This document shows positions 1 through 6,629 of a stretch of DNA of 64,000 nucleotides, in pieces. Positions within the stretch are counted from its first letter, which is position 1. Each line of letters starts with the position of its first letter. The notes beneath the pieces are model-generated. The model was given only the letters and a program-made list of their open reading frames with translations. It did not search any database and was not told the DNA's origin. The position numbers and the translations under genes were made by a program. This DNA is from Lachnospiraceae bacterium (GTDB lineage: Bacteria > Bacillota > Clostridia > Lachnospirales > Lachnospiraceae). The stretch spans positions 3,300-67,299 of the forward strand of contig JAILIS010000039.1 in the NCBI GenBank assembly GCA_024695145.1, given 5' to 3'.

Positions 1-832
<832 letters not shown>

Positions 833-846
833 TCATTCTCCAATGA

Positions 847-1737
847 TCATGTTTTTGCTTTTTTCTTTTTAAGTGCCCGGGTTCCGGCAGATATCTCCGT
901 AATCTCCTGCGTGATCCTGCTCTGGCGGGCGTGATTGTATTCAAGCCTCAGCTCTCCCATCAGCTTGGTTGCGTTCTTATCGGCTTCGTCCATGGCGTTC
1001 ATCCTGGCACTCTGTTCACAGCAGTAACTGTCCACCAGTGCACTGTAGAGATATTCCGCAATATAGCTTCTGACTATGTTCTCAAGCACGCTCTCGGCGG
1101 AAGGATAAAAATCAAAATGCAGGTTCTCATCGATCTGGTCGGGAGTATAGAAATCCTTACGGTGAAAAGGCAGAAGCCTGACTGTGATCGCCTTCTGCTG
1201 TATGCCGTTCTCGAGATCCGTATAGATCAGGAAGATCTTTGATATCTTTCCGGCATCATACTCGGAAAGGATATACTCAGCCATACGCCTTGTCCTGTTC
1301 ATGGTCGGATTGTCGGCAGAAAACCTGAACTGGTCATCATACGGTATCCCTCTGACCTCGCAGTACTTACAGCCGTAGTCACCAACCATGTAATATACGC
1401 TCTCATGTTCCATGTCGCGGCTTTCGAATTCCTTGATGACCGCATGATTATAAAACCCCGCAAGTCCTTTGTCAGATGTCACGACGATATAAGCATACGC
1501 ACCGGAAAGATCGTGCGATCCGTCTGCCGGATACATATACGGACTGTCTATCGTTCGCTTGGAACGGAATATCCTCTTGATCTCATTGTTCAGCGCGTCA
1601 AAGTGCGGTCTGGTGCGCTCAAGCTCTGCACGGGCCCTGCGCATCTTGCTCGAGGAGATCATGTACATGGCTTTGGTGATCTTCTCGGTGTCGGCAACCG
1701 ACTTCATGCGTGATCGTATCTCTCTTATGTCAGACAT
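847..1737 (-). CDS. atpG: F1 ATP synthase gamma subunit
   Basis: 296 aa. MSDIREIRSRMKSVADTEKITKAMYMISSSKMRRA is a typical gamma N-terminus, and the C-terminal ITQEITEI motif is present. It sits between alpha and beta. Confidence 0.9.
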   Translation of the reverse strand: MSDIREIRSRMKSVADTEKITKAMYMISSSKMRRARAELERTRPHFDALNNEIKRIFRSKRTIDSPYMYPADGSHDLSGAYAYIVVTSDKGLAGFYNHAVIKEFESRDMEHESVYYMVGDYGCKYCEVRGIPYDDQFRFSADNPTMNRTRRMAEYILSEYDAGKISKIFLIYTDLENGIQQKAITVRLLPFHRKDFYTPDQIDENLHFDFYPSAESVLENIVRSYIAEYLYSALVDSYCCEQSARMNAMDEADKNATKLMGELRLEYNHARQSRITQEITEISAGTRALKKKKAKT

Positions 1738-3451
1738 TTTGCCTCTTTACCGCATCCAATATCCTGAGCCTGTCATCATCGGACAGCACGCCCTGATCGT
1801 TTATCCTGCTGACTATGTCGCGGCACTGCGCCATGACGGCTTTGATGATCTTACGGATCGCCTCTCCTGACTCATCCGGCTCGATCGTCTCAAACTTGTC
1901 CGTGGTCGCTATGACAAGAGCAAATACCTGCTCCGCCGCGCTCATCGGATGATTGGGTTTCTGTTTCAAAAGGCCCATCAGACCTTCGCCGTACCTGATC
2001 TGTTTCTTCGTGACCTCATCCATATCTCCGGAAAACTGCGAAAAGCTCTCCATCTCCCTGTACTGCGCGAGATCAAGCTTAAGCGATCCGGTGGCTTTTT
2101 TCACTGCCTTTGTCTGTGCATCTCCACCGACACGCGATACGGACAGACCCACATTGATCGCGGGACGCTGTCCTAACCGGAACAGTCCTCCGGAGAGGAA
2201 TATCTGACCGTCGGTGATGGATATGACATTTGTCGGGATATATGCCGATACATCTTCTTCCTGAGTCTCGATGACAGGCAGTGCGGTAAGGCTTCCGCCT
2301 CCCCTCTCGTCGCTAAGATGTGCCGCCCTCTCAAGAAGCCTTGAATGCAGATAGAAAACATCCCCGGGATAAGCCTCACGTCCGGGAGCCCGCTCAAGCA
2401 GCAGACTTATGGAACGGTAGGCGATCGCATGCTTCGTAAGATCATCGTAAACGATCAGAACATCACGGCCCTTTTCCATAAAGTATTCGGCCATGGCACA
2501 TCCGGCATACGGTGCTATGTACAGCAGCGGTGACGGATCGGCTGCGGATGCGTTAACTACTATTGTATAATCAAGGGCACCGTTCTTTTTGAGCGAATCA
2601 ACGATCCTCGCCACGGAGCTCGATTTCTGGCCAATGGAAACATATACGCATATAACGTCCTTGCCCTTCTGGTTGAGTATCGTATCCGTGACTATCGTGC
2701 TCTTTCCGGTCTGGCGGTCGCCTATGATCAGCTCACGCTGTCCGCGGCCTATCGGAAACATCGAATCGATGGCAAGTATCCCCGTTTCAAGCGGAACGTT
2801 TACCGGCTGTCTATCTATGACCGCAGGCGCCTCGCTGTCAACTTCGCGATAGTCATCGGCAATGATATCACCGAGGCCGTCTATCGGTACCCCGAGCGGA
2901 TCCACCACGCGTCCGAGAAATCCTTCGCCCACGGGTACGCCGGCAACTCTTCCGGTGCGCTTTACAAGACTGCCCTCACATACTTCCTCTTCTGCATCAA
3001 AAAGGATACAGGCGACCTCATCACGCCGAAGATCGAGTGCCATTCCGCGCACTCCGCCGGAGAACAGGAGGATCTCCCCGTATGATGTGTCGGCCAGTCC
3101 GCTGACTGTAGCAATACCGTCACCGACCGTGGTCACGGTACCAATCTCGTCAACCATCACGGTCGGAGTCCAGTCTTTCAGTGTATCCTTGATAAGCGGG
3201 ATTATATCGGTGCGTTCATTTCGGAGAGCATACAGCGCATCCTGAAGCTGTCTGAGCCTTCCCTTTGTATTCCAGTCGTACACATCGGTTCCGACTACGA
3301 GCCTGAAACCTCCGGTGATGCCGCCGGACTGCTTCCATCCTATAGGTATGGATCTTCCGTATTTATCTTTGAGAAAATCAGCCAGTCTGCCGAGATCATC
3401 GTCAGACGGCTTTTCACTGCTGTACAGCAGTGCGGTTGTGATCTCATCCAT
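1730..3451 (-). CDS. atpA: F1 ATP synthase alpha subunit with an N-terminal delta(OSCP) C-terminal-domain-like extension
   Basis: The alpha core is present: VGDGIATVSGL, Walker A GDRQTGKS, and the C-terminal helical domain. I chose the start at ATG 3451 (MDEITT), which overlaps the atpF stop as ATGGATGA. The upstream part of the track ORF overlaps atpF and was rejected. The first ~76 aa resemble the delta C-terminal half (ITGGFRLVVGTDVYDWNTKGRLRQL). Confidence 0.85.
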   Translation of the reverse strand: MDEITTALLYSSEKPSDDDLGRLADFLKDKYGRSIPIGWKQSGGITGGFRLVVGTDVYDWNTKGRLRQLQDALYALRNERTDIIPLIKDTLKDWTPTVMVDEIGTVTTVGDGIATVSGLADTSYGEILLFSGGVRGMALDLRRDEVACILFDAEEEVCEGSLVKRTGRVAGVPVGEGFLGRVVDPLGVPIDGLGDIIADDYREVDSEAPAVIDRQPVNVPLETGILAIDSMFPIGRGQRELIIGDRQTGKSTIVTDTILNQKGKDVICVYVSIGQKSSSVARIVDSLKKNGALDYTIVVNASAADPSPLLYIAPYAGCAMAEYFMEKGRDVLIVYDDLTKHAIAYRSISLLLERAPGREAYPGDVFYLHSRLLERAAHLSDERGGGSLTALPVIETQEEDVSAYIPTNVISITDGQIFLSGGLFRLGQRPAINVGLSVSRVGGDAQTKAVKKATGSLKLDLAQYREMESFSQFSGDMDEVTKKQIRYGEGLMGLLKQKPNHPMSAAEQVFALVIATTDKFETIEPDESGEAIRKIIKAVMAQCRDIVSRINDQGVLSDDDRLRILDAVKRQNV

Positions 3452-3944
3452 TGTCACTGTTCCTGTCTGTATCCTGCACTTTTTCAAAGAAAGAGTCAAA
3501 ATCATCATGCAGGCCTTCATCCTTCATGACGATCTTCTCGGCTGCCATTGCGACATAGTCGGCGATCTCCGTCTGTGCTCTTGCTATCAGGCGGTCATGT
3601 TCCTTCTGTGCCTTGTCTCTGGCATCCTCCACGATGGATGATGCCCTGTTGTGTGCATCACTGATGATCTTTTCTCTTTCGGCTTCCGCGGCGGCACTTG
3701 TTCGTGCGCGTTCAAGCGCAGTCTCTTTTTCAGCCTCCGCAAGCTTTGACTCATACTCTCCCTTCAGCTTTTCGGCGTCCGAGAGTGCATCTTTTGTATC
3801 CCTGTCTCTCTTTCGGTACTCTTCCTCGCGCTTATCCATGAAGTCATGAACCGGCTTGTACAGAAGAATATAGAGTATGCCGAACAGAAGGACCAGATTG
3901 AACAGATGCAGCAGTATCTGCTGCACATCAATGTTTAGTGGCAT
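3444..3944 (-). CDS. atpF: Fo ATP synthase subunit b
   Basis: 166 aa. It has one N-terminal TM (LLHLFNLVLLFGILYILLYKPV) followed by a long charged A/E/K/R-rich helix. It sits between c and alpha. Confidence 0.85.
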   Translation of the reverse strand: MPLNIDVQQILLHLFNLVLLFGILYILLYKPVHDFMDKREEEYRKRDRDTKDALSDAEKLKGEYESKLAEAEKETALERARTSAAAEAEREKIISDAHNRASSIVEDARDKAQKEHDRLIARAQTEIADYVAMAAEKIVMKDEGLHDDFDSFFEKVQDTDRNSDNG

Positions 3945-3962: not shown

Positions 3963-4322
3963 TTATAATACGAATATGATAAGGATCGCCACGATCAGCG
4001 CATAGATTATGGCCGTCTCGACGAACACGAGGCCCAGCATCATGGCTGTCCTAATCTTGCCTTCGGCTTCCGGCTGTCTTGCGATACCCTCAACCGTCTT
4101 CCAGATGACAAGGCCCATTGAGATGGCGCCCGCTGCCGCAACGACCGCAATGGCTATGCCTGCTGCCCATGCCTTGGAATGAACGTTTGCCGCTTCATCT
4201 GACATTGCCGCAACAGCAACTTCACTGCTGTCAGCTGCATAGGCATTCTTTGGTGCAAACAGTCCTCCGAGCACCAGTGCGATCATCAGCACTGCGGCGA
4301 TTTTTACGATTACCTTGTTCAT
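3963..4322 (-). CDS. atpE: Fo ATP synthase subunit c with a ~39-aa signal-peptide-like N-terminal extension
   Basis: The C-terminal 80 aa form a canonical c hairpin: the GIARQPEA loop and carboxylate E in [15 protein letters not shown] strong AGGAGGAAGG SD lies just upstream of ATG 4322. The internal Met (MSDEAAN) has no SD. Confidence 0.85.
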
Positions 4323-4334
4323 TTATCCTTCCTC

Positions 4335-5171
4335 CTAAACTTTATTTAGAGCAGCCGTATCCTGATCTGCAGGATGGCGCTCGCTGACCTCTCCGTAGAA
4401 CAGTGCCGTCAGCATCGTAAGCACATACGCCTGGATCAGCGCATGAAGCATCGTGAACATAACGGCCACGAAAACGGGGATGATAAAACTTGTTGTCATA
4501 TAATAGTAAACAAGTTCGGTAACAAGTGCTCCGGAGAGCAGTGCACCGAACAGACGAAAGCTCATTGAGATCGGCAGGGAGAAATCCTTTAATGTGTTGA
4601 GCACACCCTTGAAACCGTTACCCGCGATCCCTCCGGACAGTATCACGCTGTATGAAAATACTCCCATACAGATGGCACCGTTGATATCCGCAAGCGGCGC
4701 GGGAAGTGCGATATACCCTCCGTTCGTTGCCGGCACCAGAACGCCGAGAAGCTCGAACATCGTTCCGACAAATATATATGTTCCGGCGGTAAAAACATAC
4801 GCGCCGAGAAAAGCATGTCTGTGAGGACTGTTTGATACCGCAAGGCCGTCAAAGATACCTACCGCCTGCTCGAGCAGAAGCTGGAACCTGCCGGGCTGAT
4901 CCTTAAACCTCGGTATCGCAAAGACACGTACAAACAGAGCGAAGATAAAAATGATAAAGGTCACGGTGTAAGCACTTATCACGGCCGGATTGACTGGTCC
5001 GAACCACAGAAAGTTTACCTTGGAATGCTCATGCAGCACCGCATCTTTCATGATCGTTCTGATAGGCTCCTCTTCCTGAGCCGGATCCGTGGTCAGTACG
5101 GCCCCGATGAGAATGATCAGCAATATGACAGCCCATATTATGATAAAACGTTTTCTGCTCTTAGCGTCCAT
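4335..5171 (-). CDS. atpB: Fo ATP synthase subunit a
   Basis: 278 aa polytopic membrane protein at the first position of the atp cluster. It contains MSFRLFGA, the subunit-a RLFGN-type Arg motif. Confidence 0.85.
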   Translation of the reverse strand: MDAKSRKRFIIIWAVILLIILIGAVLTTDPAQEEEPIRTIMKDAVLHEHSKVNFLWFGPVNPAVISAYTVTFIIFIFALFVRVFAIPRFKDQPGRFQLLLEQAVGIFDGLAVSNSPHRHAFLGAYVFTAGTYIFVGTMFELLGVLVPATNGGYIALPAPLADINGAICMGVFSYSVILSGGIAGNGFKGVLNTLKDFSLPISMSFRLFGALLSGALVTELVYYYMTTSFIIPVFVAVMFTMLHALIQAYVLTMLTALFYGEVSERHPADQDTAALNKV

Positions 5172-5177
5172 AGTCTC

Positions 5178-6629
5178 TTATACCCTGATATCGGCATCGA
5201 CACCGATCAGTTCCCTGTTTGCGTCGATAACGGGTCTTACATGCTCCTTAAGATATTTTTCAACCTGATACGCACTTCTTCCGGTGTAATCCTCCGGTAC
5301 CATATATGCATTCAGTTCATCCATTGTAAGGTTAAAATCATCCGATCCAGCAATAAGCTCGAGAAGGTCATTGTCCGCTCCGTCGCGCTTCACATGTGCA
5401 CCGGCTTCCATGGACAGCTTCCTGATGGATTCGTGAAGTTCCTGTCTGTTGCCCCCTGCCTTGACCGCATCCATCATGATATTCTCCGTGACCATAAACG
5501 GAAGCTCCGCAAGAAGATGTTTCCTGATGACCTTGGAATTGACAACGAGTCCGTTCGTAACATTGATGCACAGATCCAGAATGCCGTCGGTCGCAAGAAA
5601 TCCTTCCGCAACGGACAGCCGCTTATTGGCCGAATCATCAAGTGTCCTCTCAAACCACTGTGTCGCCGATGTGATCGCAGGATTGAGAGCATCTATCATG
5701 ACATATCTCGACAGCGATGCTATGCGCTCGCTTCTCATCGGGTTTCTTTTGTATGCCATTGCCGAGGACCCTATCTGGTCTTTCTCAAAAGGCTCCTCTA
5801 TCTCTTTAAGATGCTGCAGTAGCCTTATATCGTTTGACATCTTGTGTGCGCTCGCAGCTATACCGGCAAGGACATTCATCACACGCGTATCCGTCTTTCT
5901 CGAATATGTCTGGCCGCTTACGGGAACACATCCGTCAAATCCCATTTTGGATGCGATCATGTCGTCGATCCGGTCAAGCTTTTCGCTGTCATCATTGAAC
6001 AGTTCCTTAAATGATGCCTGCGTTCCGGTCGTCCCTTTGCATCCGAGCAGTTTTAGCGATGCACTCACATATTCAAGATCCTCAAGATCGATCATGAACT
6101 CGTTTATCCAAAGCGTTGCGCGCTTTCCTACAGTAGTCGGCTGTGCCGGCTGAAAATGCGTAAAGGCAAGAGTGGGCTCATCTTTATGTGCATCTGCAAA
6201 ATCGGCCAGAACGTTTATTACATTAACGAGCTTTTTCTTAACAAGTTCAAGTGCCTCACGCATTATGATGATGTCGGTATTGTCGCCGACATAACAGCTC
6301 GTCGCTCCGAGATGTATTATCCCTGCGGCTTTCGGACACTGCTTACCATAAGCAAAGACATGACTCATGACATCATGTCTTACTTCCTTCTCACGCGCTC
6401 TGGCAACATCATAGTTGATATCGCTGACATGCGCCTTCATCTCTTCTATCATTTCATCCGTGATAACGGGTTTTCCGTCCGATGACAGTCCGAGCTCTTT
6501 CTCCGTTTCGGCTAAAGCTATCCAAAGCTTTCTCCATGTCGAAAACTTCTTGTCCTGGGAAAATATATACTGCATCTCCTTTGACGCATACCGCTCGGAA
6601 AGCGGACTCGTATATGTATCCGTATTCAT
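5178..6629 (-). CDS. purB: adenylosuccinate lyase
   Basis: 483 aa. The N-terminus YTSPLSERYASKEMQYIFS and the fumarate-lyase signature GSSAMAYKRNP are both present. Confidence 0.9.
   Translation of the reverse strand: MNTDTYTSPLSERYASKEMQYIFSQDKKFSTWRKLWIALAETEKELGLSSDGKPVITDEMIEEMKAHVSDINYDVARAREKEVRHDVMSHVFAYGKQCPKAAGIIHLGATSCYVGDNTDIIIMREALELVKKKLVNVINVLADFADAHKDEPTLAFTHFQPAQPTTVGKRATLWINEFMIDLEDLEYVSASLKLLGCKGTTGTQASFKELFNDDSEKLDRIDDMIASKMGFDGCVPVSGQTYSRKTDTRVMNVLAGIAASAHKMSNDIRLLQHLKEIEEPFEKDQIGSSAMAYKRNPMRSERIASLSRYVMIDALNPAITSATQWFERTLDDSANKRLSVAEGFLATDGILDLCINVTNGLVVNSKVIRKHLLAELPFMVTENIMMDAVKAGGNRQELHESIRKLSMEAGAHVKRDGADNDLLELIAGSDDFNLTMDELNAYMVPEDYTGRSAYQVEKYLKEHVRPVIDANRELIGVDADIRV

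What the first reader, a model, noticed from the sequence alone, without database searches (positions are those of the whole stretch)
3224..3451. ATP synthase alpha carries only the C-terminal half of delta as an N-terminal fusion, and no separate atpH exists
Between atpF (stop 3444) and the alpha core there is no delta gene. Instead, the alpha ORF starts at ATG 3451, overlapping the atpF stop as ATGGATGA.

It encodes ~76 aa resembling the delta/OSCP C-terminal domain (...IPIGWKQSGGITGGFRLVVGTDVYDWNTKGRLRQLQ). It then continues in frame into the alpha N-terminal helix (TDIIPLIKDTLKDW) and barrel (VGDGIATVSGL).

The delta N-terminal domain normally grips the alpha N-termini, and it is absent here. 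A covalent link could replace it, but that gives three delta-CTD copies per F1. The alternative is an internal start at Met 3157 that yields untagged alpha.
Basis: partly seen in the sequence, partly recalled or inferred. Interest (0 to 1): 0.6.

Follow-up and report, generated by a model that had tools for sequence, protein, structure and literature searches.

The report
Natural delta-CTD–alpha fused ATP synthase
This rumen Lachnospiraceae bacterium has a second ATP synthase whose alpha subunit carries the stalk-docking half of delta; engineers built the same design in 2025 and got up to three stator stalks and about twice as many protons per ATP, and that paper had already noted natural cases.

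Summary
The fused ORF is real. ATG 3451 overlaps the atpF stop by 8 nt. [quoted passage not shown] The frame then runs into a bona fide alpha (TIGR00962, 693 bits).

"No separate atpH exists" holds only for this operon. Another contig of the same genome carries a canonical atpBEFHAGDC operon with a 184-aa delta.

The fusion is widespread. About 40 of 300 sampled Lachnospiraceae genera have the truncated form and about 21 have a full-length delta-alpha fusion. It also occurs in Oscillospiraceae, Anaerovoracaceae and Christensenellaceae. In five genomes that are 98-100% complete it is the only F-type alpha and the only OSCP hit. Loss of the delta N-domain happened more than once (AU test p = 0.009). 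No conserved internal start exists.

The closest known thing is the engineered Bacillus PS3 deltaDeltaN-alpha enzyme (PDB 9JC1; Ueno et al. 2025), which binds up to three b2-a stators and has H+/ATP 5.9 against 3.1. That paper and a 2026 preprint already note natural delta-alpha fusions, and this scan has reported the same kind on many other genomes.

Verdict: a new member of a known, still untested kind. Several stalks in vivo is inferred, not shown (about 0.45-0.5).

The parts
4335..5171 (-). atpB, Fo subunit a. It is 278 aa, has an N-terminal hydrophobic extension and keeps the FRLFG arginine motif.
   Evidence: PF00119, 67.6 bits. It is divergent and falls below the NCBIfam cut-offs. Homologues of 264-296 aa occur in related fused operons.
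3963..4322 (-). atpE, Fo subunit c. It is 119 aa with a signal-peptide-like N-terminal extension. The hairpin reads ...GIARQPE...VFVETAIIY. Met sits where Na+-binding c subunits have Gln, so it is probably H+-type.
   Evidence: PF00137, 49.8 bits, residues 53-115. The extension is conserved in the window's clade. Ion specificity is inferred from the Na+ motif of Ilyobacter tartaricus as I remember it.
3444..3944 (-). atpF, peripheral-stalk subunit b. It is 166 aa and is the only b gene in the operon. Its stop overlaps the alpha start by 8 nt.
   Evidence: PF00430, 69.3 bits. No OSCP hit in b. Sequence.
3224..3451 (-). Delta (OSCP) C-terminal domain, residues 1-76 of the fused protein. Secondary structure is beta-alpha-beta-beta-beta-alpha.
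   Evidence: PF00213 positions 102-172 of 172, 25.7 bits. PDB profile hits to delta C-terminal domains and to the engineered 9jc1_I. AlphaFold secondary structure and Foldseek hits. Alignment to the genome's own canonical delta.
3158..3223 (-). Short linker (YALRNERT) plus the alpha N-terminal amphipathic helix (DIIPLIKDTLKDW), residues 77-98.
   Evidence: Aligned to PS3 alpha residues 7 onwards. Predicted helix 83-93 with a low-pLDDT linker. The spacing from YDW to Walker A is 186 aa here and in 47 of 86 relatives; the engineered fusion has 189.
1730..3157 (-). Alpha subunit core: beta-barrel, nucleotide-binding domain with GDRQTGKS, and C-terminal domain. The stop codon is included.
   Evidence: TIGR00962, 693 bits against a cut-off of 484. 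PF02874, PF00006 and PF00306 all hit. The best PDB matches are alpha chains.
847..1737 (-). atpG, gamma subunit (296 aa). Its start overlaps the alpha stop.
   Evidence: PF00231, 279 bits.
2..826 (-). atpD, beta subunit, cut by the window edge. The full 461-aa gene and a 138-aa epsilon gene follow on the contig.
   Evidence: ORF lists of the window and of L004 (G000:C26:1-4200).

Best explanation
The window encodes a complete second F-type ATP synthase: a, c, b, deltaDeltaN-alpha, gamma and beta, with epsilon just outside the window.

Shown:
- The delta N-terminal domain is gone.
- The delta C-terminal domain, the part that docks the b2 stalk, is translated as the N-terminus of every alpha subunit.
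- Translation is coupled to atpF through an 8-nt overlap.
- The gene is intact, conserved, under purifying selection, and widespread in gut and rumen Clostridia.
- In some genomes it is the only F-type alpha and the only delta-like sequence.

Inferred with good support (about 0.85): the covalent link replaces the delta N-domain's grip on alpha, so the enzyme needs no free delta.

Inferred by analogy only (about 0.45-0.5):
- All three alphas carry a docking site and nothing sits on the three-fold axis.
- The enzyme could therefore bind more than one b2-a stator unit, up to three.
- That would move two to three times more ions per ATP, allowing ATP synthesis at a lower ion-motive force, or more ions pumped per ATP.

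In this genome the fused enzyme, with a probably H+-type c subunit, coexists with a conventional single-delta operon whose c subunit carries a Na+-binding signature.
For: - Sequence and domains.
- Delta-CTD identity by profile and by fold.
- Alignment to the genome's own delta: the protein starts exactly at the first strand of the CTD.
- Purifying selection on the extension.
- Conservation:
  - 70 clusters of 568-635 aa, nearly all 572-591 aa.
  - About 40 truncated and about 21 full-length fusions among 300 Lachnospiraceae genera.
  - Other Clostridia families and cultured strains, including Faecalibacterium gallinarum JCM 17207, Catonella morbi ATCC 51271 and Lachnospiraceae bacterium KH1P17.
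- Sole F-type alpha and sole OSCP hit in G295, G063, G110, G165 and G016, all 98-100% complete.
- No conserved internal start; the YDW to Walker A spacing is tightly conserved at 184-193 aa in 80 of 86 genes.
- The fusion lineage is one clade apart from canonical alphas. One origin of the truncated forms is rejected, p-AU 0.009.
- Engineered twin:
  - PDB 9jc1_I aligns colinearly, query 5-528 to chain 4-530.
  - It binds 0, 1, 2 or 3 stalks in 15, 51, 26 and 8% of particles.
  - a and b are 2.4 and 2.0 times the wild-type amount.
  - H+/ATP is 5.9 against 3.1, and the equilibrium pmf is 68 against 133 mV.
- A natural two-stalk, two-a F1Fo exists in Chloroflexus aurantiacus, which has a shortened delta N-domain.
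Against: - Nothing here measures protein. No junction-spanning peptide, subunit stoichiometry, structure or ion/ATP ratio exists for any natural fusion.
- The number of stalks may be capped by how much a and b is made, by c-ring size, or by the enlarged a and c subunits of this clade.
- Even the engineered enzyme was mostly single-stalk on cryo-EM grids.
- Full-length delta-alpha fusions, which keep the axis-occupying N-domain, are also common. Fusion by itself therefore need not mean several stalks.
- Ech was not found in this 85%-complete genome, so a dedicated low-pmf H+ circuit is not evident.
- The AlphaFold models have only moderate confidence: mean pLDDT 69 for the full protein and 65 for the N-terminus.
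Confidence: 0.5

Rival explanations
1. The fusion is real and anchors the stator, but the working enzyme has the usual single b2-a stalk. One of the three delta-CTDs is used and two stay idle. The fusion only simplifies assembly, and the N-domain was lost because the tether made it redundant.
For: - Every natural F-type enzyme solved so far has one stalk, except Chloroflexus.
- 51% of engineered particles had one stalk.
- Full-length fusions with three N-domains are frequent, so fusion does not require a free axis.
- Repeated N-domain loss fits neutral decay of a redundant domain as well as it fits selection.
- A later check quoted in this scan's notes priced the many-stalk reading low for a related b-delta-alpha fusion. 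That is an unchecked note.
Against: - The unoptimised engineered enzyme took up about two stalks on average by SDS-PAGE and doubled its H+/ATP. Extra stalks therefore bind readily once the sites exist.
- No symmetry-breaking element is visible in the operon.
Confidence: 0.38
2. The long form is made, but plain alpha is also produced by an internal start (Met 3157) or by cleavage of the linker. F1 would then hold a mix, for example one tagged and two untagged alphas.
For: - ATG 3157 exists, preceded by GTG.
- The linker is predicted to be flexible, pLDDT 45-58.
- A scan note reports a possible internal start in a cultivable carrier of a related fusion. That is an unchecked note.
Against: - The Met is present only in the window's closest relatives.
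- There is no SD upstream of it.
- Only 2 of 86 family members have ATG plus an SD-like motif at the junction, against 7 of 86 in a control region.
- A start at 3157 would delete the conserved alpha N-terminal helix.
Confidence: 0.07
3. The fused enzyme borrows the free, full-length delta of the canonical operon on contig C39. The N-domain function would then be supplied in trans.
For: A 184-aa delta is encoded in the same genome.
Against: - Five near-complete genomes have the truncated fusion and no other OSCP-like sequence or F-type alpha.
- The two alpha lineages are far apart, separated by a branch of 1.47 changes per site.
Confidence: 0.04
4. The fusion is an assembly or sequencing artefact, or a decaying pseudogene, that merged a broken atpH with atpA.
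For: The genome is an 85%-complete draft in 47 contigs.
Against: - The same architecture with the same start appears in well over 100 independent assemblies, including isolates.
- dN/dS is far below 1.
- All other subunit genes are intact.
Confidence: 0.01

Closest known systems
Engineered deltaDeltaN-alpha fused FoF1 of Bacillus PS3 (PDB 9JC1; Ueno et al., Nat Commun 2025, PMC12229609; bioRxiv 10.1101/2024.08.27.609901)
   Same: - The delta N-domain is deleted.
- The delta C-domain (PS3 residues 105-178) is fused to the N-terminus of alpha, and the alpha N-terminal helix is kept.
- The chain length is 580 aa against 573 aa here.
- The alignment is colinear, query 5-528 to chain 4-530.
- The YDx to Walker A spacing is 189 against 186 aa.
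   Different: - It is man-made, with a GGSGGS-type linker and an epsilon lacking its C-terminal domain.
- Its stalk number (up to 3) and H+/ATP (5.9) were measured. For the natural enzyme nothing has been measured.
- The natural operon also has enlarged a and c subunits.
Natural delta-alpha fusions noted in print: Acidaminococcus fermentans and UniProt G4Q3K6 and A0A1I2C5T3 (Ueno et al. 2025, Discussion), and the phylogenomic survey in bioRxiv 10.64898/2026.10.01.756066
   Same: - Natural operons without a separate delta, in which delta or only its C-terminal part sits at the N-terminus of alpha.
- Ueno et al. predict several stalks for them.
   Different: - Those reports amount to a few sentences.
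- The Ueno Discussion passages name only A. fermentans and two UniProt IDs, and a word search of the 2026 preprint found no 'Lachnospiraceae' or 'Clostridia'. Their supplementary figures were not seen, so whether this lineage is covered there is unknown.
- Within what I could read, I found no mention of coexistence with a Na+-type canonical operon, of the series from full-length fusion to truncated fusion, or of repeated N-domain loss.
- I could not fetch their sequences to compare.
[quoted passage not shown]
   Same: It is a natural F-type enzyme in which a reduced delta N-domain goes with more than one b2-a stator and presumably more H+ per ATP.
   Different: Its delta is a free 157-aa subunit whose short N-domains dimerise. 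There is no fusion to alpha, and it has two stalks rather than potentially three.
Mycobacterial b-delta fusion (for example PDB 7JG5)
   Same: A peripheral-stalk subunit is fused covalently to a neighbour. Its delta C-domain is a structural match.
   Different: Delta is fused to b rather than to alpha, the N-domain is kept and enlarged, and there is one copy and one stalk per enzyme.
The two F-type ATP synthases (H+ and Na+) of rumen butyrivibrios (Schoelmerich et al., PNAS 2020, as summarised in PMC11026938)
   Same: These are Lachnospiraceae with two F-type operons: one with a Na+-signature c subunit and one without.
   Different: - The original paper was not available, so I do not know whether the butyrivibrio H+ enzyme is fused.
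- Ech was not found in this genome. Rnf was found.

Membership tests
F-type ATP synthase alpha subunit (NCBIfam TIGR00962, atpA) | Whole-protein score above the curated cut-off, with the alpha/beta barrel, nucleotide-binding and C-terminal domains | tested here: met
   693.2 bits against a cut-off of 484.45. PF02874, PF00006 and PF00306 are all above their cut-offs.
F-type ATP synthase alpha subunit (NCBIfam TIGR00962, atpA) | Operon context with b upstream and gamma and beta downstream | tested here: met
   The minus-strand order is a-c-b-[delta-CTD-alpha]-gamma-beta-epsilon.
Delta/OSCP subunit (Pfam PF00213) | N-terminal helical bundle that binds the alpha N-termini (profile positions about 1-100) | tested here: not met
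   Only profile positions 102-172 match. The protein starts at the first strand of the C-domain in the alignment with the genome's own delta. The upstream frame lies inside atpF.
Delta/OSCP subunit (Pfam PF00213) | C-terminal alpha/beta domain that binds the b C-terminus | tested here: met
   25.7 bits against a cut-off of 22.3. PDB profile hits to delta C-domains. Foldseek top hits are delta/OSCP chains, TM about 0.55 normalised to the query.
DeltaDeltaN-alpha fused F-ATP synthase (design of Ueno et al. 2025; natural cases predicted there) | Delta N-domain absent, delta C-domain fused in frame to the alpha N-terminus with the alpha N-terminal helix kept, and no separate delta gene in the operon | tested here: met
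DeltaDeltaN-alpha fused F-ATP synthase (design of Ueno et al. 2025; natural cases predicted there) | More than one peripheral stalk and a subunit per complex | not testable with these tools
   This needs subunit stoichiometry or cryo-EM. Only single-chain prediction was available here.
DeltaDeltaN-alpha fused F-ATP synthase (design of Ueno et al. 2025; natural cases predicted there) | Raised ion/ATP ratio and a lower threshold ion-motive force | not testable with these tools
   This is a biochemical measurement. It has been done only for the engineered enzyme.
N-ATPase (alternate F1Fo; Dibrova et al. 2010) | Operon order atpD-C-Q-R-B-E-F-A-G, with atpQ and atpR, and alt_F1F0 subunit models above cut-off | tested here: not met
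   The order here is B-E-F-A-G-D-C with no Q or R. TIGR03324 scores 631 against 750.5, and the other alt_F1F0 models are far below their cut-offs.
Mycobacterial-type b-delta fusion | OSCP domain fused to the C-terminus of a b subunit | tested here: not met
   b is 166 aa and hits only PF00430. NF009961 (B/delta) scores 18.5 against 328.

The most novel reading that the evidence does not exclude
The fused operon builds a natural multi-stator F-type ATP synthase with two or three b2-a units on one c-ring. Its H+/ATP ratio would be two to three times higher. It would act as a low gear beside the conventional one-stalk Na+ enzyme in the same cell. Gut and rumen Clostridia would have reached this design repeatedly, by first fusing delta to alpha and then losing the delta N-domain.
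Probability: 0.45. Interest if true: 0.85.

Novelty: new member of a known kind. Interest (0 to 1): 0.55.

Why it matters
The ion/ATP ratio of ATP synthase sets how little membrane energy a cell needs to make ATP. It was long thought to vary only with c-ring size. In 2025 an engineered deltaDeltaN-alpha enzyme and the Chloroflexus structure showed that extra stators are a second way to change it.

If the natural fusions found here also carry extra stators, then many abundant gut and rumen fermenters run a different gear ratio from the textbook one. Carriers include Lachnospiraceae, Faecalibacterium relatives, Mogibacterium, Oribacterium and Catonella. That would change ATP-yield estimates for fermentation.

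- How widespread the fusion is.
- Genomes in which the fusion is the only F-type enzyme.
- Coexistence with a Na+-type canonical operon.
- An evolutionary series: unfused, then full-length fusion, then truncated fusion, with the truncated form arising more than once.
- Named cultivable strains in which the prediction can be tested.

Tried and rejected
- **The search for related loci with alignments A1 and A2:** failed, because no stretch was conserved enough. I used degenerate DNA patterns instead.
- **The search of protein representatives with residues 1-100:** returned almost only contig-end fragments. A plausible reason is that full-length fusions cluster at 50% identity under ordinary alpha representatives. 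It could not count fusions worldwide.
- **The listing of cluster members:** gave no organism names beyond "Lachnospiraceae bacterium".
- **Schoelmerich et al. 2020 (PMC6969491):** not held, so I could not learn whether the butyrivibrio H+ enzyme is fused.
- **Ech (PF00346):** not found in this 85%-complete genome, so I dropped the idea of a dedicated Ech/H+ circuit here.
- **N-ATPase and b-delta fusion:** considered and rejected.
- **Internal start at Met 3157:** rejected.
- **dN/dS:** values are rough because dS is saturated.
- **Tree method:** the tree used the quick method. Only the AU test backs the claim of more than one truncation event.
Full report
**1. What is in the window**

On the minus strand lies a compact atp operon:

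| Gene | Coordinates | Product |
|---|---|---|
| atpB (a) | 5171-4335 | 278 aa |
| atpE (c) | 4322-3963 | 119 aa |
| atpF (b) | 3944-3444 | 166 aa |
| fused alpha ORF | 3451-1730 | 573 aa |
| atpG (gamma) | 1737-847 | 296 aa |
| atpD (beta) | 826 to the window edge | cut |

The rest of beta (461 aa in all) and a 138-aa epsilon follow on the contig. There is no room for a delta gene between them.

**2. The N-terminal extension is the delta C-terminal domain**

- Pfam places residues 4-73 on OSCP profile positions 102-172 of 172. The score is 25.7 bits against a gathering cut-off of 22.3. It is followed by the alpha barrel (100-167), nucleotide-binding and C-terminal domains.
- NCBIfam calls the core a true atpA: TIGR00962 at 693 bits against a cut-off of 484. 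The N-ATPase alpha model stays below its cut-off.
- Aligned with the genome's own canonical delta, the protein starts at the first beta-strand of the delta C-domain.
- A profile of relatives' N-termini hits only the C-domains of delta/OSCP chains in the PDB.
- An AlphaFold model of residues 1-100 has only moderate confidence (mean pLDDT 65). It shows a beta-alpha-beta-beta-beta-alpha unit followed by a linker and the alpha N-terminal helix. All of its top 42 Foldseek hits are delta/OSCP chains.
- The full-length model (mean pLDDT 69) gives the same elements and a low-confidence linker.

**3. "No separate atpH" is wrong for the genome**

The assembly has 47 contigs and is 85% complete. Contig C39 carries a canonical operon: a putative atpI-like ORF, then B-E-F-H-A-G-D-C, with a 184-aa delta (OSCP 147.5 bits) and a 501-aa alpha.

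- Its c subunit has the Gln...Glu-Thr-Thr...Tyr pattern of Na+-binding c subunits.
- The window's c subunit has Met at the Gln position and reads VETAIIY.
- That comparison rests on the Ilyobacter tartaricus motif as I remember it.

The window's operon is therefore a second F-type enzyme, probably H+-coupled. Rnf is present in the genome. Ech was not found.

**4. The fusion is real and widespread**

- Two rumen Lachnospiraceae MAGs have the same 573-aa protein, 71-74% identical in the N-terminus.
- 70 protein clusters of 568-635 aa (nearly all 572-591 aa) share the extension. Where a source names them, NCBI calls them simply "F0F1 ATP synthase subunit alpha".
- Among 300 Lachnospiraceae genera, one genome each:
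  - about 40 have an open frame of 579-650 aa covering the delta-CTD plus alpha;
  - about 21 have a stop-free frame of 669-697 aa holding a nearly complete delta plus alpha.
- dN/dS of the delta part against three relatives is about 0.07-0.18, though dS is saturated.
- Two pattern scans of 185,579 species genomes found the truncated form in Oscillospiraceae (including Faecalibacterium gallinarum JCM 17207), Anaerovoracaceae (Mogibacterium), Christensenellaceae, Eubacteriaceae, Catonella morbi ATCC 51271 and Lachnospiraceae bacterium KH1P17.
- The same scans found the full-length form in Oribacterium species, Lachnospiraceae bacterium A4, Muricoprocola aceti and Suilimivivens aceti.
- They also found unfused deltas of the same lineage in Mediterraneibacter, Blautia and Faecalicatena.

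**5. The enzyme does not need a free delta**

- In G295, G063, G110, G165 and G016 (98-100% complete), the fused gene is the only match above the atpA cut-off and the only OSCP hit. The other hits in those genomes are of the size expected for beta, V-type A/B and FliI; I assigned them by size and context and did not test them.
- In G000, G243, G156, G208, G211 and G182, a canonical operon is present as well.

**6. No hidden plain alpha**

- Met 3157 is shared only by the closest relatives.
- It has no Shine-Dalgarno sequence.
- It would remove the conserved alpha N-terminal helix.
- Across 86 distinct truncated-class genes, an in-frame ATG with an SD-like motif in the junction occurs in 2. A control stretch inside alpha gives 7.
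- 85 of the 86 genes have a start codon at the head of the delta-CTD.
- The distance from the delta YDW motif to the alpha Walker A is 186 aa in 47 of 86 genes and 184-193 aa in 80 of 86.

**7. Evolution**

- On a tree of alpha cores, all fusion-lineage alphas (67 rows, which include 2 unfused alphas of that lineage) are separated from the canonical alphas by a branch of 1.47 changes per site.
- Truncated forms sit in several places among the full-length fusions (quick method).
- Forcing all truncated forms into one clade costs 67 log-likelihood units, p-AU 0.009. Loss of the N-domain therefore happened more than once.
- The window's clade also has a c subunit with a signal-peptide-like extension and an enlarged a subunit.

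**8. What it works like**

The best PDB match to the N-terminal profile is 9jc1 chain I, described as "ATP synthase delta subunit, ATP synthase subunit alpha": 580 aa, three chains. It aligns colinearly with the window protein, query 5-528 to chain 4-530.

It is the engineered Bacillus PS3 enzyme of Ueno et al. (Nat Commun 2025, PMC12229609). In it, delta residues 2-104 were deleted and delta 105-178 was fused to alpha, so that each alpha can dock a b2 stalk. They reported:

| Measure | Engineered | Wild type |
|---|---|---|
| a subunit amount | 2.4x | 1x |
| b subunit amount | 2.0x | 1x |
| Particles with 0 / 1 / 2 / 3 stalks | 15 / 51 / 26 / 8% | not reported in what I read |
| H+/ATP | 5.9 | 3.1 |
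| Equilibrium pmf | 68 mV | 133 mV |

Every stalk they observed carried an a subunit. The engineered YDx to Walker A spacing is 189 aa, inside the natural range.

**9. What was already known**

- Ueno et al. note that Acidaminococcus fermentans and two UniProt entries have a natural delta-alpha fusion lacking the delta N-domain. They call a multi-stalk structure "highly likely" and awaiting verification.
- A 2026 preprint reports delta-alpha fusions, some with only the C-terminal part of delta, in a phylogenomic survey.
- Chloroflexus aurantiacus F1Fo has two stalks and two a subunits, with a shortened free delta.
- Niu et al. [quoted passage not shown]
- This scan's own notes hold 71 findings that match the query words for this kind, on other genomes. 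The eight I saw all report delta-alpha or b-delta-alpha fusions and point to the same engineered enzyme. I reached the same comparison independently through.

**10. Verdict**

- The covalent-link idea is supported. The internal-start alternative is not.
- The object is a new member of a known but experimentally untested kind.
- Shown: a real, conserved, selected fusion that stands alone in some genomes.
- Inferred: it anchors the stator without the delta N-domain (about 0.85), and it binds more than one b2-a stator (about 0.45-0.5).
- No protein-level or transcript-level evidence could be obtained.

Noticed in passing
window 3963-4322 (-), and the c genes in L005, L006, L138, L145, L168 and L144: The c subunit of the window's clade is 117-157 aa, with a signal-peptide-like N-terminal extension (…AYA/AD…). 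In full-length-fusion operons and in Catonella, c is a plain 72-76 aa. The a subunit of the same clade is enlarged to 264-296 aa.
   Followed up: partly
G000 contig C39, locus L003 5564-12159: This is a canonical second atp operon, B-E-F-H-A-G-D-C preceded by a putative atpI-like ORF. Its 84-aa c subunit carries a Na+-binding-type signature (GVGQG … AETTGLY).
   Followed up: partly
L144 2046-3065 (Candidatus Coproplasma stercoravium): Two delta C-terminal domains in tandem are fused to alpha, seen as two OSCP stretches.
   Followed up: partly
L120 1787-3106, and L132 (Ruminococcaceae / Candidatus Heritagella): A 785-aa ORF holds a duplicated delta N-terminal domain, then the C-domain, then alpha. 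The operon has two identical tandem c genes.
   Followed up: partly
L118, L124, L137, L141 (Catonella, including C. morbi ATCC 51271): These are truncated fusions with an acidic linker about 30 residues longer than in the window, between the delta-CTD and the alpha helix. The YDW to Walker A spacing is 205 aa.
   Followed up: no
L032 (G242, single-contig genome), L052 (G182), and L173, L189, L204, L224 and others: Here delta and alpha are separate genes but belong to the fusion lineage. This is either the pre-fusion state or a secondary split. The organisms include Mediterraneibacter, Blautia and Faecalicatena.
   Followed up: partly
L060, L068, L070-L072, L077, L078 and about 25 more loci: The degenerate DNA pattern for YDW-x-TKGR also hit many Planctomycetota contigs. 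None of them encodes YDWSTKGR in an alpha ORF. I did not examine what conserved gene this is.
   Followed up: no
window 5171-5178: The atpB start lies 6 nt after the purB stop, with no atpI. The purC-purB-atp genes are packed head to tail on one strand.
   Followed up: no
L194 (Absicoccus porci) and L216: These are ORFs of 585-592 aa with the delta-CTD motif at the N-terminus, but their Walker A did not match my GDRQTGK pattern. They may be divergent fused alphas outside Clostridia (Erysipelotrichaceae).
   Followed up: no
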